Source of the DNA: an uncultured Bacillota bacterium
Lineage (GTDB): Bacteria > Bacillota_I > Bacilli_A > RF39 > UBA660
Length of the DNA stretch: 64,000 bases
Direction: 5' to 3'
Assembly (NCBI GenBank): GCA_945867665.1
Contig: CAMBIR010000003.1
Coordinates: 18,757-82,756 of the forward strand
Shown here: one piece after another, positions 3,392 through 15,904 of the stretch
How positions within the stretch are numbered: position 1 is the first letter of the stretch
Layout: every line of letters starts with the position of its first letter
The notes under the pieces: generated by a model
Seen by the model: only the letters and a program-made list of their open reading frames with translations
Told to the model about the DNA's origin: nothing
Database searches by the model: none
Made by a program: the position numbers and the translations under genes

Positions 3392-4780
3392 TTACTTCGT
3401 ACTAACTTTCAAAGGACTTTCCTTTGTCCCCATTCCACTATATTTGAGCCCAGACTTCAGAACCACTATTGGGCGAAGGGAATTGCCGTTACTACCCGTG
3501 GCGAAACCTGAACTGTTATAGGAATACAGGATGCTGTTGGCATACGACCCCGAAGTGCCCAAGCCCCGTCCGCGCCACTTATAGTTAGTCGAAGAGGAAT
3601 AATAATAGTATCGTGATGCCATCCAATAATCAGAACTGCTACTCCCTGGTTTAGTGGCTACTCGTGTCCCTAAAACTGTATTAACTAAATCATAATCCGT
3701 AGTATATAATTCATCTCCTCCACCTTGACTCTCAACAGTACTACTTCCTGTTGAACTTGTCCATGGTGCTGGATTTGTAAATTTGGAAGTATCCGTAATA
3801 TATTCTGTCTGACCATTATACCCAAAATGCCTAGATGAAACAGTATAAGTACTATTTTCATATTGACTGGCAAGAACATTTAAATATCCAACAAAATTTT
3901 GATACCCTGTTTGTCCTTTAAAATAAACGTCTGTACTAGAGACATGTTCACTAATCATCTCTACTGTTCCATCATCATTAATACGAATTACTCGCCACAA
4001 ATTTAACTCTTTTGGATAAATCGTTTGACTAGATGTATATCCTGTCATTGTTGTATCCGTTGAATAAGAAGATTTGGTAGGCGTTAAAGAAACATAATCT
4101 CCTAGACTAATCATTCCACTAACATTCTCCGCTAAAGCATCAATCGCACATTGAACATCAGAACAATTAAGCCCTGTTTTCGAATTATCATAACTAAATC
4201 GACTAGCAATAACATCATTCGCCACCAATGCCCCATTATCAATACTATCAGTTGTACTATAAGCAGCAATCCCATCTATTTTTAATCTGGCACTAAAACT
4301 TTTATTGATTTCAGTATTTTGAACAGCCTCAGATATCCATACCCGAACATCAATATCTACACTTGTTTTGGGCAATAAAATAATATCACTTTTAATAATA
4401 TTATTACTACAATCACTAAGTTGTTTAGGATCTAGTTTCCCCACCTTTGTCATAATAAATTGATGATTGATTTCATCTGTAGCCGTTGTAGGTTCTAGTA
4501 TCACATTAAATTTATAAGCAACCGTTCCTGAATTTTTAACCGTTATTCGATAAGGAGTAATTGTAGGGATTCTTTGATTAGAAATTGGCCTAGATACATC
4601 TAAAGTAACATTACCCGCATCTTCTACAGTAACCACTAAACTTCCCAATTTATAAACATTAGCTTCCTGATCAACATCTGTAGAATTAAAAAGAGAATAG
4701 GTACTACCAATCATCAAAATAGATACTAATATAATAGAAATAACACTGGTAACAATTAATCTTTTCTTAGAATCCATCAC
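3392..4780 (-). CDS. DGR target protein 3, remote from the cassette; N-terminal signal/anchor and C-terminal variable domain
   Basis: 462 aa. The N-terminus 'KKRLIVTSVISIILVSILMIG' is hydrophobic. The C-terminal 230 aa are paralogous to ORFs 11915..12859 and 14939..15904. The 3' part (3471..3605) aligns to the TR at 13941..14075 with substitutions mostly at TR adenines. Confidence 0.8.
   Translation of the reverse strand: MMDSKKRLIVTSVISIILVSILMIGSTYSLFNSTDVDQEANVYKLGSLVVTVEDAGNVTLDVSRPISNQRIPTITPYRITVKNSGTVAYKFNVILEPTTATDEINHQFIMTKVGKLDPKQLSDCSNNIIKSDIILLPKTSVDIDVRVWISEAVQNTEINKSFSARLKIDGIAAYSTTDSIDNGALVANDVIASRFSYDNSKTGLNCSDVQCAIDALAENVSGMISLGDYVSLTPTKSSYSTDTTMTGYTSSQTIYPKELNLWRVIRINDDGTVEMISEHVSSTDVYFKGQTGYQNFVGYLNVLASQYENSTYTVSSRHFGYNGQTEYITDTSKFTNPAPWTSSTGSSTVESQGGGDELYTTDYDLVNTVLGTRVATKPGSSSSDYWMASRYYYYSSSTNYKWRGRGLGTSGSYANSILYSYNSSGFATGSNGNSLRPIVVLKSGLKYSGMGTKESPLKVSTK
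3471..3605 (-). other. DGR variable region VR3
   Basis: About 135 bp homologous to the TR. The pattern of substitutions differs from VR1 and VR2. The flanking IMH-like block 'gagcccagacttcagaaccactat' is shared with VR1 and VR2. Confidence 0.75.
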
Positions 4781-5507: not shown

Positions 5508-5637
5508 AAAAAAATAAAGTCTTATTCATAAAATTTATCATTTTGAATATTCTATAAACAAATATTTATTTCTGTTGATTATTTCTCTTTAAAAATTGAC
5601 AAATAGTTTAAAAATATGATAAATTAAAGAAGAAAGG

Positions 5638-6228
5638 ATGGTAAAAATGTTAAAAAAATTAAATCAAATCATTAATGAAGCAATAGGAATTTCCATTATT
5701 TTTCTCCTTCTTGGTATTATTTTCTTAATATTTCCCAATATTTCCATTAAAATAGTTGCTTACTTAATTGCGATTATCTTAATTGGAAGTGGAATCTATT
5801 TAACCTACTTAGAAATTTATACCAAAAGTTTTCTCTTACCAATAGATACTCTTCTTAATGGAATACTCTCTATTCTATTTGGAATTATTATTTTAATTTA
5901 TCCAGATATCTTTAAAATAATGATTCCCATTATCTTAGGTACTTACTTTATTCTAGATAGTATCTTCAAATTAAAACTAGTTGTATTATTAAGAAGAATA
6001 GACAACAAGAGTTGGATAGTAACGCTTCTTCTAACAATACTATCTATCATTTGTGGAATCATCTTAATCTTAAATCCTATTGATAGTTCTATTGCACTAG
6101 CCCTATTTGCTGGAATTACTTTAATTATCTATTCCCTATCTGGAATAATTGATATGATTTTATTTAAGAAAAATATTCATGATTTAACAAAAGTATTTAA
6201 AGAAAATATTAAAATTATTGAAGAATAA
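5638..6228 (+). CDS. DUF308/HdeD-like repeat-containing integral membrane protein
   Basis: 196 aa with six hydrophobic segments carrying repeated 'GI..I..G...I' patterns. The RBS is 'agaaaggatgg'. Confidence 0.55.
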   Translation: MVKMLKKLNQIINEAIGISIIFLLLGIIFLIFPNISIKIVAYLIAIILIGSGIYLTYLEIYTKSFLLPIDTLLNGILSILFGIIILIYPDIFKIMIPIILGTYFILDSIFKLKLVVLLRRIDNKSWIVTLLLTILSIICGIILILNPIDSSIALALFAGITLIIYSLSGIIDMILFKKNIHDLTKVFKENIKIIEE

Positions 6229-11508: not shown

Positions 11509-11880
11509 CTAATTAAAAGCAAGTTCTGTATCAATATCATAATCTGTATAAGCAATATATAAAAGAATAATTCCCGCTAATACAATAAATAAACTACTAA
11601 TAAAAGATAAATATATAGCTTCCTTCTTACCTTTACTATCACTTATTTTTATATTTTTTAATTCCTTTATACTATCAATAAAATAATAAGAATAAGTAAT
11701 CAAAGCACCACCAAAAATAATAATCATTAACTCTCGGTACCTCTTCTTACTCTCCTCATTCTGATAAATTAAATAATCCCTCTCAAAAACATTCGCAATA
11801 AAAGAAAGAAGAATAATAATGATTAATACTAACCAAATTACTTCTTCTATTTCTAACTTTTTCAATCTCTCTTCATCCAT
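11509..11880 (-). CDS. Small integral membrane protein, hypothetical
   Basis: 123 aa with three hydrophobic segments. Sits directly downstream of DGR target1. Confidence 0.4.
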   Translation of the reverse strand: MDEERLKKLEIEEVIWLVLIIIILLSFIANVFERDYLIYQNEESKKRYRELMIIIFGGALITYSYYFIDSIKELKNIKISDSKGKKEAIYLSFISSLFIVLAGIILLYIAYTDYDIDTELAFN

Positions 11881-11892
11881 AATAAAATATAT

Positions 11893-12530
11893 GAGATATC
11901 CTCCACTTCCTACTTTACTTTATCTCCATCGGATAGTCCTCTGTACCTACTCCCTCATATTGGAGCCCAGACTTCAGAACCACTATCGGGCGAAGAGAGC
12001 TGCTGCTACCGCCCGTGTTGAAATTCGAACTATAATAGCTATACAGGTTGTAGTTGCTAATTGACCCAGAAGCGAGCACCTTCCGTCCGCCCCAGCGATA
12101 GTCAGTCGAGGAGGAATAATTATAGTATCGTGATGCTATCCAATAAGAAGCACCACTACCCCCTGGTTTAGCGGCTACTCTTGTCCCTAAAACTGTATTG
12201 ATTAAATTATAATCTGTAGTGTATAAAGTATCTCCTCCACCTTGACTCTCAACAGTACTACTTCCAGTTGAACTTGTCCATGGTGCTGGATTTGTAAATT
12301 TGGAAGTATCGGTAATATATTCCGTTTGCCCATTATATCCAAAATATCGAGAACCTTTAGTATAAGCACTATTTTCATACTGACTTGCAAGAACATTTAA
12401 GTATCCAACTAGGTTTTGATACCCTGTTTGTCCTCTAAAATAAACCGCTACACTAGAGACATGTTCACTAATCATCTCTACTGTTCCATCATCATTTAAT
12501 TTAATCACTCGCCATAAATTTAATTCTTGT
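11893..12530. repeat. Direct repeat copy A, about 640 bp and 100% identical to 14917..15554 (3' portion of target gene including VR and IMH)
   Basis: Read base by base, with identity confirmed at several blocks and divergence beginning upstream of about 12530. Confidence 0.75.
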
Positions 12531-12859
12531 GGATTAATCGTTTGCGTACTAGTATATCCAGTTTTAGAAGCATCCGTTGTATAGCTAGACTTGGTTGGTG
12601 TCATCTTGACATAGTCTCCTAAAGCAAGAGTATTTTTTTTCTTTAAACAAACATATCCATCTGGACATGACTTACCATATAATTCATCCAAAGCATCTTG
12701 AACATTAGTTGAACTAAGACCACTTTTACTATTATCATAAGTTAAATCTACTCCATTACCAACGTATGTCGTTGCTGCATATACTCCCGTTACCGATAAG
12801 AATATTCCAATTACTAAACCAACTAGTATCTTATAATTATAACTTTTCTTTTTCTTCAT
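11915..12859 (-). CDS. DGR target protein 1, secreted or anchored, with C-terminal variable domain
   Basis: 314 aa. Signal peptide 'MKKKKSYNYKILVGLVIGIFLSVTGVYA'. The C-terminal 230 aa are identical to ORF 14939..15904. The 3' VR (11988..12122) matches the TR except mainly at TR-adenine positions. Confidence 0.85.
   Translation of the reverse strand: MKKKKSYNYKILVGLVIGIFLSVTGVYAATTYVGNGVDLTYDNSKSGLSSTNVQDALDELYGKSCPDGYVCLKKKNTLALGDYVKMTPTKSSYTTDASKTGYTSTQTINPQELNLWRVIKLNDDGTVEMISEHVSSVAVYFRGQTGYQNLVGYLNVLASQYENSAYTKGSRYFGYNGQTEYITDTSKFTNPAPWTSSTGSSTVESQGGGDTLYTTDYNLINTVLGTRVAAKPGGSGASYWIASRYYNYSSSTDYRWGGRKVLASGSISNYNLYSYYSSNFNTGGSSSSLRPIVVLKSGLQYEGVGTEDYPMEIK
11988..12122 (-). other. DGR variable region VR1
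   Basis: Aligns with the TR at 13941..14075. On the plus strand TR 'gagagTTgTTgTTaTTgTTcgtg' corresponds to VR 'gagagCTgCTgCTaCCgCCcgtg', so the substitutions fall on coding-strand adenines. Residues encoded there: TR N/N/N/N/N give VR D/R/G/K/L and so on. Confidence 0.8.
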
Positions 12860-13805
12860 TTCTAATCATTCCTTTATTTAGATTTTTATAATTAATATAA
12901 CTTGCTAAATAACTATTTAATTTTATCTTTCCAATTTCATATAAATACTTTTTATATTTTAATTTTCTTCTCTTGTCTCTATATTTAGAATTTCTATTAT
13001 CTTTATCTCTTCCTAGAAAAATAATATTATTGGTATTCTTATAAATTCTAGTTTTATTATTTAACTCTAATCTTTCTTTTCTTAAAAATTCTTTTATCTT
13101 ATCTAAACAATACTTTAAATATTGTTTATCTTGATGAAACAAAATAAAATCATCTTGATATCTTACATAATATTTTATCTTTAACTCTTCTTTAATATAA
13201 TGATCTAAATCATTTAAATAAAATATTCCTAATATTTGACTACTCATAAATCCTATACTAAGTGTAGTATCACTATCTAATATTTTATCTATTATCATTA
13301 AAGCATCTTTATCTTTTATTTTTCTTTTCAATTTATTCTTTAATACTCTAATATCAATACTAGCAAAATAAGAATGAATATCACATTTTAAAAGATAATA
13401 AGTACCATATTTTCTCTCCATCATATTACGATACTGATAATATAATTTTAGAGCATAAGATGTTCCTTTATTTGTTCTAGAAGCACAATTTGCATCAATT
13501 AAACAAGGAATTAAAGCATCATATAAAATATATCGACTCACCAAATGATTCACTAATTTATCATACATACTTTGACTAACAATTCTTCTTTTCTTTGGAT
13601 CGTATATGTAAAAAACATGAAACTTTCCTACTTCATAAGTTTTATTTTTTAAATCATGATATACCCGACTAATATAAATTGCTTTAAAATTCTTAAATTG
13701 TTGTACTCTATTCTTATTTTTTGTATTTCTACATATCTCATCAAAACATCTCTCTATATTTTCAAATTTATATATATTTTGATATAAATTATTTACTCTT
13801 TTCAT
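12837..13805 (-). CDS. DGR reverse transcriptase
   Basis: 322 aa. RT motifs 'IGFMSSQILGIFYLNDLDHY' (DGR-type [IVL]GxxxSQ in place of QGxxxSP) and 'YVRYQDDFILF' (YxDD box). The size is typical for DGR RTs. It overlaps the start of target1 by 23 nt. Confidence 0.9.
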   Translation of the reverse strand: MKRVNNLYQNIYKFENIERCFDEICRNTKNKNRVQQFKNFKAIYISRVYHDLKNKTYEVGKFHVFYIYDPKKRRIVSQSMYDKLVNHLVSRYILYDALIPCLIDANCASRTNKGTSYALKLYYQYRNMMERKYGTYYLLKCDIHSYFASIDIRVLKNKLKRKIKDKDALMIIDKILDSDTTLSIGFMSSQILGIFYLNDLDHYIKEELKIKYYVRYQDDFILFHQDKQYLKYCLDKIKEFLRKERLELNNKTRIYKNTNNIIFLGRDKDNRNSKYRDKRRKLKYKKYLYEIGKIKLNSYLASYINYKNLNKGMIRNEEKEKL

Positions 13806-13929
13806 ATATCCCCTTTCATTTTCATTACTAACAGATATATTTTTTATATTGTTTATAGAATAATCTATTGGACTTAGTCTATTTCTTCATTATCTCTAAT
13901 ATAAGTCTTTCTTATATCACCTCAGTTTG
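13806..13929 (-). ncRNA. DGR TR–RT spacer, presumed structured part of the template RNA
   Basis: A 124-nt non-coding gap between the TR 3' end and the RT start codon. In characterised DGRs this spacer is part of the RNA that primes cDNA synthesis. The assignment here is inferred from position alone. Confidence 0.4.
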
Positions 13930-14095
13930 AAGAAGTTCCTGGGCGAAGAGAGTTGTTGTTATTGTTCGTGTTGAAACTTGAACTATTATAGTTATACAGG
14001 TTGTTGTTGCTAGTCGACCCAGAAGTGTTCACATTCCGTCCGTTCCAGTTATAGTTAGTCGAAGAGGAATAATCATAACAACATCTCTTTCCAAA
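13930..14095 (-). repeat. DGR template repeat (TR)
   Basis: Non-coding copy of the target 3' region lying between avd and the RT. Its residual reading frame is Asn-rich, 'STNYNWNGRNVNTSGSTSNNNLYNYNSSSFNTNNNNNSLRP', with 13 or more AAC codons at positions that vary in VR1, VR2 and VR3. The 3'-end block 'cttcgcccagg' (IMH*) differs from the VR-side IMH. Confidence 0.85.
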
Positions 14096-14099
14096 CCAA

Positions 14100-14444
14100 C
14101 TAAGCCCGAGATGACTTTCGCCATCCAATAACATACTTTAATAAATAATCCAAATTCTCCCCAAATTTTAAATATCTTTTGGCATTAATAATGTGTTTAT
14201 CGTAACAAACATTAACCAAATAATCTAAATATTTAATATAAGAAATAATTTTATCTTGAATATCGATTCTTTTATTGATATCAAATGTTGTATTTGCTTC
14301 ATAAGCAATCTTTAACATTTGATAAGAAGTAAACATAATTTCTCTTTTTATTTCTATTTCTTTATGAGGAAAATTTGTTAAATACTGATCAAAACTATCA
14401 ATTAATCTCTTAATCAATTCTGTTATATAAAATTTATCTTTCAT
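14100..14444 (-). CDS. avd: DGR accessory variability determinant (Avd; four-helix-bundle, 23S rRNA IVS protein family)
   Basis: 114 aa. 'LIDSFDQYLTNFPHKEIEIKREIMFTSYQMLKIAYEAN … YLDYLVNVCYDK' fits the Avd consensus (FPK.E.…R.…). It lies immediately upstream of the TR. Confidence 0.7.
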   Translation of the reverse strand: MKDKFYITELIKRLIDSFDQYLTNFPHKEIEIKREIMFTSYQMLKIAYEANTTFDINKRIDIQDKIISYIKYLDYLVNVCYDKHIINAKRYLKFGENLDYLLKYVIGWRKSSRA

Positions 14445-14883
14445 ATAATAACTTCTCTACTTCTTCAATTTTATCATCATGCTTTAAAAGATAGACCTTA
14501 ATTCTATCAATTCTATTTAATTTATCTAAATAATCATTTGCTTTAGAAGAAACCTCTTTATACTTATTTTTCTTTTTATAATTCATCTTATCCATCTCTT
14601 CATAATTATGATTCTTATCAATCGAAATATAATTAATATTTCTACTCTCTAAATTTGAAATAACTCTATTATAAGAAACCAAAGGAAAACCACAATTCTT
14701 ATCTCCACTAGATAATATCTTAATTTTATATTGAAATAAATAAGAAATGATATTGGCATCATCATTATAACATTCATAAAAAGTACCAATTTTTAATAAT
14801 ACTACATATTCTGGAAATAATTCTTTTAAATTATTTGCCATATTTACTACTGCCATATAAACCTTCTTTCTTTTTTTAACCAA
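14434..14883 (-). CDS. MutS domain-I-like (mismatch-recognition domain) small protein; putative DGR accessory factor
   Basis: 149 aa. 'FPEYVVLLKIGTFYECYNDDANI…KNCGFPLVSYNRVISNLESRNINYISI' aligns to MutS domain I ('PILLFYRMGDFYELFYDDA…[23 protein letters not shown]') and keeps the Phe-x-Glu mismatch-contact motif ('FYE'). It overlaps the avd start by 11 nt. Confidence 0.6.
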   Translation of the reverse strand: MVKKRKKVYMAVVNMANNLKELFPEYVVLLKIGTFYECYNDDANIISYLFQYKIKILSSGDKNCGFPLVSYNRVISNLESRNINYISIDKNHNYEEMDKMNYKKKNKYKEVSSKANDYLDKLNRIDRIKVYLLKHDDKIEEVEKLLYER

Positions 14884-14916
14884 AGCCCATCTCAGGAACG
14901 ACCTTAGGCCGTTCTT

Positions 14917-15554
14917 GAGATATCCTCCACTTCCTACTTTACTTTATCTCCATCGGATAGTCCTCTGTACCTACTCCCTCATATTGGAGCCCAGACTTCA
15001 GAACCACTATCGGGCGAAGAGAGCTGCTGCTACCGCCCGTGTTGAAATTCGAACTATAATAGCTATACAGGTTGTAGTTGCTAATTGACCCAGAAGCGAG
15101 CACCTTCCGTCCGCCCCAGCGATAGTCAGTCGAGGAGGAATAATTATAGTATCGTGATGCTATCCAATAAGAAGCACCACTACCCCCTGGTTTAGCGGCT
15201 ACTCTTGTCCCTAAAACTGTATTGATTAAATTATAATCTGTAGTGTATAAAGTATCTCCTCCACCTTGACTCTCAACAGTACTACTTCCAGTTGAACTTG
15301 TCCATGGTGCTGGATTTGTAAATTTGGAAGTATCGGTAATATATTCCGTTTGCCCATTATATCCAAAATATCGAGAACCTTTAGTATAAGCACTATTTTC
15401 ATACTGACTTGCAAGAACATTTAAGTATCCAACTAGGTTTTGATACCCTGTTTGTCCTCTAAAATAAACCGCTACACTAGAGACATGTTCACTAATCATC
15501 TCTACTGTTCCATCATCATTTAATTTAATCACTCGCCATAAATTTAATTCTTGT
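14917..15554. repeat. Direct repeat copy B (identical to 11893..12530)
   Basis: See copy A. Confidence 0.75.
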
Positions 15555-15904
15555 GGTTTAATTGTTTGCGTACTCGTATATCCTGTTTTAGAAGTATCTG
15601 TTGTATAGCTAGACTTGGTAGGTGTCATCTTAACATAGTCTCCTAAAGCAAGGGTACTTTTCTTTTGTAAACAAACATAACCATCAGGGCAACTAGTACC
15701 ATCTCCATATACCTTCTTATATTTATCTGAAAGTTCATCAACTGCTCCTTGTACATCAGCACTAGATAAGTTACTATTTTCATTATCATAAAAAACATCT
15801 TCTGCTCTATATTTATTTACTGCCCATACACTAATGATAGGAATTAATATTCCTATCATTAAACCAATGAATAATTTATAATTCTTATTTTTTAATATTC
15901 GCAT
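14939..15904 (-). CDS. DGR target protein 2, secreted or anchored, upstream of the cassette
   Basis: 321 aa. N-terminal 'MRILKNKNYKLFIGLMIGILIPIISVWA'. The C-terminal domain and VR are identical to target1. Confidence 0.85.
   Translation of the reverse strand: MRILKNKNYKLFIGLMIGILIPIISVWAVNKYRAEDVFYDNENSNLSSADVQGAVDELSDKYKKVYGDGTSCPDGYVCLQKKSTLALGDYVKMTPTKSSYTTDTSKTGYTSTQTIKPQELNLWRVIKLNDDGTVEMISEHVSSVAVYFRGQTGYQNLVGYLNVLASQYENSAYTKGSRYFGYNGQTEYITDTSKFTNPAPWTSSTGSSTVESQGGGDTLYTTDYNLINTVLGTRVAAKPGGSGASYWIASRYYNYSSSTDYRWGGRKVLASGSISNYNLYSYYSSNFNTGGSSSSLRPIVVLKSGLQYEGVGTEDYPMEIK
15012..15146 (-). other. DGR variable region VR2 (identical to VR1)
   Basis: Offset by 3024 bp from VR1 and the same sequence throughout. 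Confidence 0.8.

What the first reader, a model, noticed from the sequence alone, without database searches (positions are those of the whole stretch)
11893..15554. Cassette flanked by perfect 640-bp direct repeats; VR1 and VR2 are identical
11893..12530 and 14917..15554 are identical base for base, including the entire VR and IMH. Similarity then falls to about 90% and is lost further upstream in the genes. Independent mutagenic homing would not be expected to leave two VRs identical. The likely explanations are a very recent segmental duplication or gene conversion of the target 3' half to the other side of the RT, or an assembly collapse. Homologous recombination between the two repeats would cleanly excise RT, TR, avd and the MutS-like gene and leave a single hybrid target, which would act as a built-in off-switch.
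Basis: seen in the sequence. Interest (0 to 1): 0.6.

Follow-up and report, generated by a model that had tools for sequence, protein, structure and literature searches.

The report
Identical DGR target repeats, probably assembler-made
The two perfectly identical 641-base repeats around this bacterial hypermutation cassette are really in the sequence, but a second public copy of the same contig carries a different variant in both repeats at once, so the identity was most likely imposed by the assembler.

Summary
Window 11892-12532 and 14916-15556 are a perfect 641-bp direct repeat. They are the 3' two-thirds of two paralogous target genes (T1, T2) that flank a chromosomal diversity-generating retroelement (MutS-like gene, avd, TR, RT) in an uncultured gut Bacilli genome.

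The identity is probably not biological.
- A second public version of the same SPAdes contig (ERZ10544616 NODE_54, 124,891 bp) matches the window over 20,945 bp except at 28 sites. Those sites are changed identically in both repeat copies.
- So the reads hold two alleles (A and B, 24 differences in the VR), and each assembly writes one allele into both positions. metaSPAdes does this when it projects a bulge and traverses one consensus edge twice.
- Comparative evidence suggests A is the true T1 block and B the true T2 block.

The target–cassette–target layout is old. It occurs in three other same-species assemblies and three related species, always with VR1 different from VR2. This rules out a recent segmental duplication.

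The C-terminal halves do evolve in concert, so gene conversion is real background. One cassette-less contig and two short hybrid-target contigs exist in public short-read assemblies. They match the proposed excision product but could be chimeric paths.

The parts
11892..12532 (-). Repeat copy 1: last 618 nt of target gene T1 plus 23 nt after the stop codon
   Evidence: Perfect 641-bp match to 14916-15556. In the other version of the contig (L058), 28 sites between 11987 and 12259 differ.
14916..15556 (-). Repeat copy 2: last 618 nt of target gene T2 plus 23 nt after the stop codon
   Evidence: Perfect match to copy 1. The same 28 sites (15011-15283) differ in L058, in the same direction as in copy 1.
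11915..12859 (-). T1, DGR target gene, 314 aa, hydrophobic N-terminal segment, VR near the C-terminus
   Evidence: ORF list and translation. No Pfam or NCBIfam hit. Equals P0001.
14939..15904 (-). T2, paralogous DGR target gene, 321 aa
   Evidence: Equals P0123. The N-terminal 205 nt are 62% identical to T1 but 82-95% identical to T2 orthologues.
11988..12124 (-). VR1 as written in the window (allele A)
   Evidence: 82% identical to TR: 25 mismatches, 19 at TR adenines and 6 not. Only 4 nt different from the VR of L060.
15012..15148 (-). VR2 as written in the window (allele A again). The true sequence is probably allele B of L058.
   Evidence: Identical to VR1. In L058 both VRs are allele B, which has 20 mismatches to TR, 18 of them at adenines.
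13941..14077 (-). Template repeat (TR)
   Evidence: Third member of repeat family D2. Alignment with the VRs. Identical in the window and L058.
12837..13805 (-). DGR reverse transcriptase, 322 aa. Its 3' end overlaps the T1 start by 23 nt.
   Evidence: Pfam RVT_1, E=1.5e-12. The sequence shows IGFMSSQ and YQDD.
14100..14444 (-). Avd-like accessory gene, 114 aa
   Evidence: NCBIfam NF033474 DivGenRetAVD, E=2.3e-5, 24.7 bits. The match is full length but below the 80-bit cut-off. No Pfam hit.
14434..14883 (-). MutS-like (MSL) accessory gene. 149 aa from the TTG start; relatives are called as 140 aa from the ATG at 14856.
   Evidence: Pfam MutS_I, E=3.6e-8, 34 bits, above the 20.6-bit cut-off. 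Gene calls in L002-L004.
14889..14921 (-). Hairpin just downstream of T2, straddling the 3' edge of the repeat. Absent downstream of T1 in this window.
   Evidence: DNA fold -10.3 kcal/mol, z=-3.6. The T1-side counterpart does not fold. The hairpin sequence is present after both T1 and T2 in L002/L004.
3392..4780 (-). T3, a third, remote target gene (462 aa). Its VR3 lies at 3470-3607.
   Evidence: blastn: 77.5% to TR and 82% to T2 over 690 bp. tblastn: 66% amino-acid identity. Its VR is different from VR1/VR2.

Best explanation
The locus is a chromosomal diversity-generating retroelement (DGR). Its cassette (MutS-like gene, avd, TR, RT) sits between two old paralogous target genes, T2 upstream and T1 downstream. 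Their C-terminal ~640 bp are very similar because of recurrent gene conversion.

In the sequenced sample the two copies were close enough (28 visible differences in 641 bp, 24 of them in the VR) that a de Bruijn-graph assembler merged them into one consensus edge. It then traversed that edge twice when it spanned the repeat. The window therefore shows one allele (A) at both positions, and another public version of the same contig shows the other allele (B) at both positions.

In the real genome VR1 and VR2 most likely differ: A in T1 and B in T2. What is shown: two alleles exist, and each assembly duplicates one of them. What is inferred: the assembler mechanism and the assignment of A to T1 and B to T2.
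For: (1) Cluster members P0003 and P0125 are T1 and T2 with a different but mutually identical C-terminal block, on a contig of the same length (124,891) as P0001/P0123, which equal the window's T1/T2.

(2) L058 (ERZ10544616 NODE_54_length_124891) is base-for-base identical to the window over 20,945 bp except at 56 positions. These are 28 sites times 2 copies, at exactly corresponding places.

(3) A and B differ at 24 of 137 VR positions, as much as any two unrelated VRs of this family (22-30). Both look like genuine DGR products, with 19/25 and 18/20 mismatches at TR adenines.

(4) In every other genome with this layout VR1 differs from VR2.

(5) Allele A differs by only 4 nt from the VR linked to T1's downstream context in L060, and by 15 nt from that in L059. 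Site 11987 is G in four of five T1-linked copies and A in all four T2 copies and in allele B.

(6) The contig name is in SPAdes format. The metaSPAdes paper describes projecting bulges onto a consensus graph and then resolving long repeats through the consensus edge (PMC5411777).

(7) A Logan contig (L001, SRR17382105) identical to the window ends exactly 30 nt (k-1 for k=31) inside the repeat. This shows a graph branch at the repeat boundary.

(8) Wu et al. already treat duplicated VRs in a multi-target DGR as a possible assembly error (PMC5758913).
Against: No reads were available, so neither phasing nor coverage was checked. I could not see the record of the window's own version, because its proteins are reported as 'not on record'. 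A mixed population of A/A and B/B cells would give the same two assemblies. Gene conversion clearly operates at this locus, so a truly identical pair is biologically possible.
Confidence: 0.78

Rival explanations
1. The identity is real. A very recent gene conversion between T1 and T2 copied about 640 bp, VR included, from one paralogue to the other. The two public versions then reflect two subpopulations (A/A and B/B) or two closely related samples.
For: Concerted evolution of the C-terminal half is evident. Within-genome T1-T2 identity in the pre-VR part is 94% in L012 and 89% in L021, against 73-81% to other species. The N-terminal parts group by orthology. L003's T1 and T2 share a strain-specific 3-bp insertion. 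Outside the VR, alleles A and B differ at only 3 of about 408 pre-VR positions. So a recent conversion in this strain is likely in any case.
Against: It needs both copies to be identical in two separate subpopulations that differ nowhere else in 20.9 kb. No other genome with this layout shows identical VRs. Allele A looks like a T1-lineage VR, and allele B carries T2-type flanking bases.
Confidence: 0.12
2. A very recent segmental duplication moved the 3' half of the target gene to the other side of the RT.
For: The perfect identity and the sharp 3' boundary at 11892/14916.
Against: Both genes are full length and homologous throughout, with diverged N-termini (62% identity). The same T2-cassette-T1 layout is present in L002, L003 and L004 and in three other species at 80-90% repeat identity. 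The sharp 3' edge is explained by a deletion downstream of T1 in this strain, relative to L002/L004.
Confidence: 0.02
3. A and B belong to two co-existing strains rather than to the two paralogues, and the assembler produced a strain consensus. The true T1/T2 state within each strain is unknown.
For: metaSPAdes masks strain variants as bulges (PMC5411777). The Logan contig L001 also breaks at 14262, inside avd, which hints at some additional branch in that sample.
Against: There is no other difference between the two versions in 20.9 kb, including VR3. Two strains that differ only in this block would be unusual.
Confidence: 0.08

Closest known systems
MSL-containing DGRs (Architecture D of Wu et al. 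2018, NAR 46:11; one is in the Legionella DGR)
   Same: avd plus a small MutS_I-like accessory gene next to TR and RT. Adenine-biased TR-to-VR differences. More than one target gene, which Wu et al. find in 13-15% of DGRs (PMC5758913).
   Different: Here the cassette is bracketed by two paralogous targets, and a third target lies 8 kb away. The host is an uncultured low-GC gut Bacilli lineage. The target protein has no recognised domain.
Stenotrophomonas DGR with eight tandem targets but only five unique VRs (Wu et al. 2018)
   Same: Duplicate VR sequences among targets of one DGR. The authors flag this as a possible assembly error.
   Different: Here the artefact can be argued directly, from two versions of one contig that carry alternative alleles in both copies.
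metaSPAdes bulge projection and repeat resolution on a consensus graph (Nurk et al. 2017)
   Same: Near-identical alternative paths are merged. The repeat is then spanned through the single consensus edge, which yields identical copies (PMC5411777). The contig name is in SPAdes format.
   Different: I did not see the assembly graph, the assembler version or the reads. The fit is by behaviour, not by inspection.
Concerted evolution of duplicated bacterial genes by gene conversion (general knowledge, e.g. duplicated tuf genes, rRNA operons)
   Same: Paralogues within a genome are more alike than orthologues between genomes over part of their length.
   Different: Here the converted segment includes a hypermutated VR, which is re-diversified afterwards. 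I found no paper describing this for DGR targets.

Membership tests
Diversity-generating retroelement | Reverse transcriptase of the DGR type | tested here: met
   Pfam RVT_1, E=1.5e-12, above cut-off. The sequence contains IGFMSSQ and YQDD; recognising these as DGR-typical motifs rests on my own knowledge. No DGR-specific NCBIfam model matched; only weak hits to other RT families.
Diversity-generating retroelement | TR/VR pair whose differences fall at TR adenines | tested here: met
   Allele A has 19 of 25 mismatches at TR adenines, allele B 18 of 20. Related loci have 15-21 of 19-24.
Diversity-generating retroelement | A 3' flank (IMH-like) that is conserved in the VRs and differs from the TR flank | tested here: met
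   All VRs of T1, T2 and T3 and of related loci continue with (G/A)ATAGTGGTTCTGAAGTCTGGGCTC after CTTCGCCC. The TR continues with AGGAACTTCTTCAAACTGAGG.
Diversity-generating retroelement | Avd accessory protein | tested here: inconclusive
   NF033474 DivGenRetAVD matches over its full length, but at 24.7 bits against an 80-bit cut-off. No Pfam hit and no PDB relative. Position and size fit.
Diversity-generating retroelement | Variable protein with a C-type-lectin-like fold at the VR | tested here: inconclusive
   No Pfam or NCBIfam hit. The AlphaFold model had mean pLDDT 44.7 and was not used.
MSL-type DGR (Architecture D) | Small MutS-like accessory gene together with avd | tested here: met
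   Pfam MutS_I, 34 bits against a 20.6-bit cut-off. The definition is from PMC5758913.
Collapsed repeat in a graph assembly | The read set holds more than one allele of the block, while each assembly shows a single allele at both positions | tested here: met
   The window has A/A and L058 has B/B. There are 28 parallel differences and nothing else differs in 20,945 bp.
Collapsed repeat in a graph assembly | Read depth over the block and read linkage to the unique flanks | not testable with these tools
   No reads or assembly graph were available. The only related datum is that the Logan contig L001 ends k-1 bases inside the repeat.
Concerted evolution by gene conversion | Paralogues group by genome in the converted segment and by orthology outside it | tested here: met
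   Region-wise identity matrices. A strain-specific insertion is shared by T1 and T2 of L003.
Recent segmental duplication | The second copy is absent from close relatives, and the copies are equally similar along their length | tested here: not met
   Both copies are present in three other same-species assemblies and three other species. The N-termini are 60-66% identical.

The most novel reading that the evidence does not exclude
The flanking-target layout makes the DGR cassette a recombination-excisable unit. Recurrent gene conversion keeps the C-terminal halves of T1 and T2 similar, and crossing-over between them removes MSL, avd, TR and RT. Natural populations would then hold 'on' alleles (T2-cassette-T1), cassette-less alleles (L059) and single hybrid targets with a frozen VR (L060, P0131). 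The nearly unchanged allele-A-type VR seen in three samples would be such a frozen state.
Probability: 0.25. Interest if true: 0.5.

Novelty: not a real feature. Interest (0 to 1): 0.2.

Why it matters
This is mainly a caution. In multi-target DGRs assembled from short reads, identical VRs can be written by the assembler, so they should not be read as evidence of inactivity, recent duplication or co-ordinated diversification. Here the two deposited versions of one contig disagree at exactly the hypervariable block.

The real biology underneath is a conserved target–cassette–target layout with concerted evolution of the target C-termini, and possibly cassette-less alleles. It is of moderate interest for how DGR loci are maintained and lost. 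It needs long reads to be trusted.

Tried and rejected
- Phage origin: no megablast match in the phage collection. The neighbours are housekeeping genes (CinA, NAD kinase, an RNA methyltransferase, a Mur ligase), so the locus is chromosomal.
- Exact look-ups of the window's T1, T2, the shared 205-aa fragment, CinA, MSL, the 123-aa protein and P0001 all returned 'not on record'. The window's own record could therefore not be inspected.
- The structure prediction of T2 from a 29-sequence alignment gave pLDDT 44.7, so no fold search was run.
- PDB sequence search for the Avd-like protein found nothing meaningful.
- Literature searches found no description of gene conversion among DGR target paralogues.
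- I considered whether DGR homing itself could homogenise the copies. It cannot: TR homology covers only 137 nt of the 641, and three of the allele differences lie upstream of it.
- I considered the six non-adenine TR/VR mismatches of allele A as a sign of a dead DGR. Rejected as a general claim, because allele B has only two and carries the TR's private T at 12110.
Full report
**Observation**

A scan at offset 3024 shows a perfect run of 641 bases, 11892-12532 = 14916-15556. Upstream, identity is 88-96% for about 120 nt, then falls in ungapped register. A gapped alignment shows the two genes remain homologous to their start codons, with indels.

**Anatomy**

All parts are on the minus strand. 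In transcription order they are:
- T2 (15904-14939, 321 aa).
- A MutS_I-like gene (14883-14434; Pfam PF01624 above cut-off).
- An Avd-like gene (14444-14100; NCBIfam DivGenRetAVD matches full length but below cut-off).
- TR (14077-13941).
- RT (13805-12837; RVT_1; IGFMSSQ and YQDD in the sequence).
- T1 (12859-11915, 314 aa).

The VRs (12124-11988 and 15148-15012) are 82% identical to TR, with 25 mismatches, 19 of them at TR adenines. A third target, T3 (4780-3392), with its own VR3 (3607-3470), lies 8 kb away.

The neighbours are CinA, NAD kinase, an HTH regulator and an RNA methyltransferase. There is no phage match. The nearest genomes are uncultured Bacilli MAGs from human gut and rumen. 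So this is a chromosomal, MSL-type DGR, which is Architecture D of Wu et al. (PMC5758913).

**The layout is old**

Contigs that encode the identical Avd protein were found in other metagenomes. L002, L003 and L004 have the same order: T2, MSL, avd, TR, RT, T1, the 123-aa gene, CinA. Their T1/T2 repeats are only 85-90.5% identical over about 800 bp, and their VRs differ.

Species representatives with RT identity of 86%, 77% and 71% (L021, L012, L013) also have the flanking-target layout, with 80-88% repeat identity. More distant RT relatives have a single TR/VR pair.

Region-wise identities show two patterns:
- In the N-terminal 205 nt, orthologues group together (T1s 89-94%, T2s 82-95%, T1 against T2 60-66%).
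- In the pre-VR segment, paralogues group by genome. L012 is 94% within the genome against 73% to others, and L021 is 89% against about 80%.

L003's T1 and T2 also share a private 3-bp insertion. This is concerted evolution, meaning repeated gene conversion of the C-terminal half. A recent segmental duplication is excluded.

**The decisive result**

A protein search with the shared 205-aa C-terminus, followed by a cluster listing, returned two pairs:
- P0001 and P0123, which equal the window's T1 and T2.
- P0003 and P0125, which have the T1 and T2 N-termini with a different but mutually identical C-terminal block.

Both pairs sit on a contig of the same length, 124,891 bp. The contig that carries the second pair is ena:ERZ10544616:NODE_54_length_124891_cov_32.14 (L058).

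Base-for-base comparison of its 20,945 bp with the window gives 56 differences. These are 28 sites in copy 1 (11987-12259) and the same 28 sites, with the same changes, in copy 2 (15011-15283). Nothing else differs, not even in VR3.

So two versions of one contig exist. Each has T1 block = T2 block, but one carries allele A and the other allele B. A and B differ at 24 of 137 VR positions, as much as unrelated VRs of this family (22-30). They also differ at three sites upstream of the TR-homologous region and at one site just 3' of the VR.

Parallel biological change of both copies at 28 sites, with no other change in 21 kb and an unchanged contig length, is not credible. A single graph edge that is spelled twice, with its bulge resolved one way in one run and the other way in another, explains it directly. 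The metaSPAdes paper describes exactly this: bulges are projected to build a consensus graph, and long repeats are then spanned through the consensus edge (PMC5411777). The NODE_..._length_..._cov_ name is SPAdes style. A Logan contig from SRR17382105 that is identical to the window ends 30 nt (k-1) inside the repeat, which marks the graph branch at the repeat boundary.

**Which allele belongs where (inference)**

- Allele A's VR differs by only 4 nt from the VR of L060 and by 15 nt from T1 of L059. Both are linked to T1's downstream gene. All other VR pairs differ by 22-30 nt.
- Site 11987 is G in T1 of L002, L004 and L059 and in L060, but A in T2 of L002, L003, L004 and L059 and in allele B. 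L003's T1 is the one exception.
- Allele B carries the private T of this strain's TR at 12110 and has only two non-adenine mismatches to TR. Allele A has six.

The simplest reading is that T1 holds the older allele A and T2 holds allele B, a recent homing product of the present TR. If so, T2's block in the window is wrong at 28 positions. The pre-VR parts of A and B differ at only 3 of about 408 positions, so a fairly recent conversion in this strain is still likely. Further differences could have been masked in both versions.

**The off-switch idea**

Three public contigs bear on it:
- L060 (1,893 bp) has T2's upstream neighbour, a single target with a T2 N-terminus, and T1's downstream 123-aa gene. 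This is the predicted hybrid.
- P0131, on a 1,932-bp contig, is a T2 N-terminus joined to the C-terminal block of the T1 of a 96,760-bp contig in another lineage.
- L059 (5,539 bp) has T2 followed after about 64 bp by T1, with no cassette between them.

These may be real structural alleles. However, short short-read contigs that pass through a repeat are the typical form of chimeric paths. I could not retrieve sample-matched contigs, because the look-ups were exhausted.

**Remaining uncertainty**

I had no reads, no graph, and no view of the window's own record. A population of A/A and B/B cells would give the same two assemblies. I rate real identity at about 0.1-0.15.

**Verdict**

The perfect identity and the 'identical VRs' are most likely not a real feature of the genome. 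The underlying locus is an ordinary member of a known DGR architecture, with an interesting but unproven recombination dynamic.

Noticed in passing
window 3392-4780 (VR3 3470-3607): A third DGR target gene (462 aa) lies 8 kb from the cassette. Its C-terminal ~290 aa are 66% identical to T2. VR3 has 31 mismatches to TR, 11 of them not at adenines. It shares TTCGGGG and CAATTCCCTTCGCCC with the TR of another strain (L003), as if it was last rewritten from an older TR allele.
   Followed up: partly
L059 3294-5235 (ena:ERZ28574212 scaffold_12477): This is a same-species contig (98% identical upstream). T2 is followed after ~64 bp by T1, with no MSL, avd, TR or RT between them, and the two VRs differ. 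T2's 3' end there resembles the T1 3' end of L003 (…EISTS*).
   Followed up: partly
L060 1-1893 (ena:ERZ28573772 scaffold_62728): A single target gene with T2's upstream context and T1's downstream 123-aa gene. This is the hybrid expected from recombination between the repeats. Its VR is only 4 nt different from the window's allele A. It may be a chimeric assembly path.
   Followed up: partly
proteins P0054, P0132, P0058 (contig length 41,189) and P0131, P0048, P0041 (contigs 1,932 and 96,760): The same pattern occurs in related lineages. A T1-type and a T2-type protein share an identical C-terminal block including the VR (P0054/P0132), while another T1 version (P0058) has its own block. A short contig carries a T2/T1 hybrid (P0131). 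This suggests that collapse or chimerism, or real recombination, recurs at this locus type.
   Followed up: partly
window 14889-14921 versus 11860-11892: A 14-bp-stem hairpin (-10.3 kcal/mol, z=-3.6) follows T2 and straddles the repeat's 3' edge. It is missing after T1 in this strain because of a ~90-bp deletion relative to L002/L004. It has no T-run, so it is not a typical terminator. Its role is unknown.
   Followed up: partly
L003 3638-3775 (TR), 2570-2704 (VR2), 5593-5730 (VR1): Private non-adenine variants of L003's TR (GTTTT, CAATTCCC) are present in its VR2 but not its VR1. This shows homing into T2 after the TR mutated, and different histories for the two targets.
   Followed up: no
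L012 1371-2093: The 77%-RT relative (CAKOYV010000001.1) has a third target-like copy upstream of T2, 83% identical to T1/T2 over ~430 bp.
   Followed up: no
L001 start = window 14262: The Logan contig from SRR17382105 also ends inside avd at 14262, for no reason visible in the window. There may be a variant branch in that sample.
   Followed up: no
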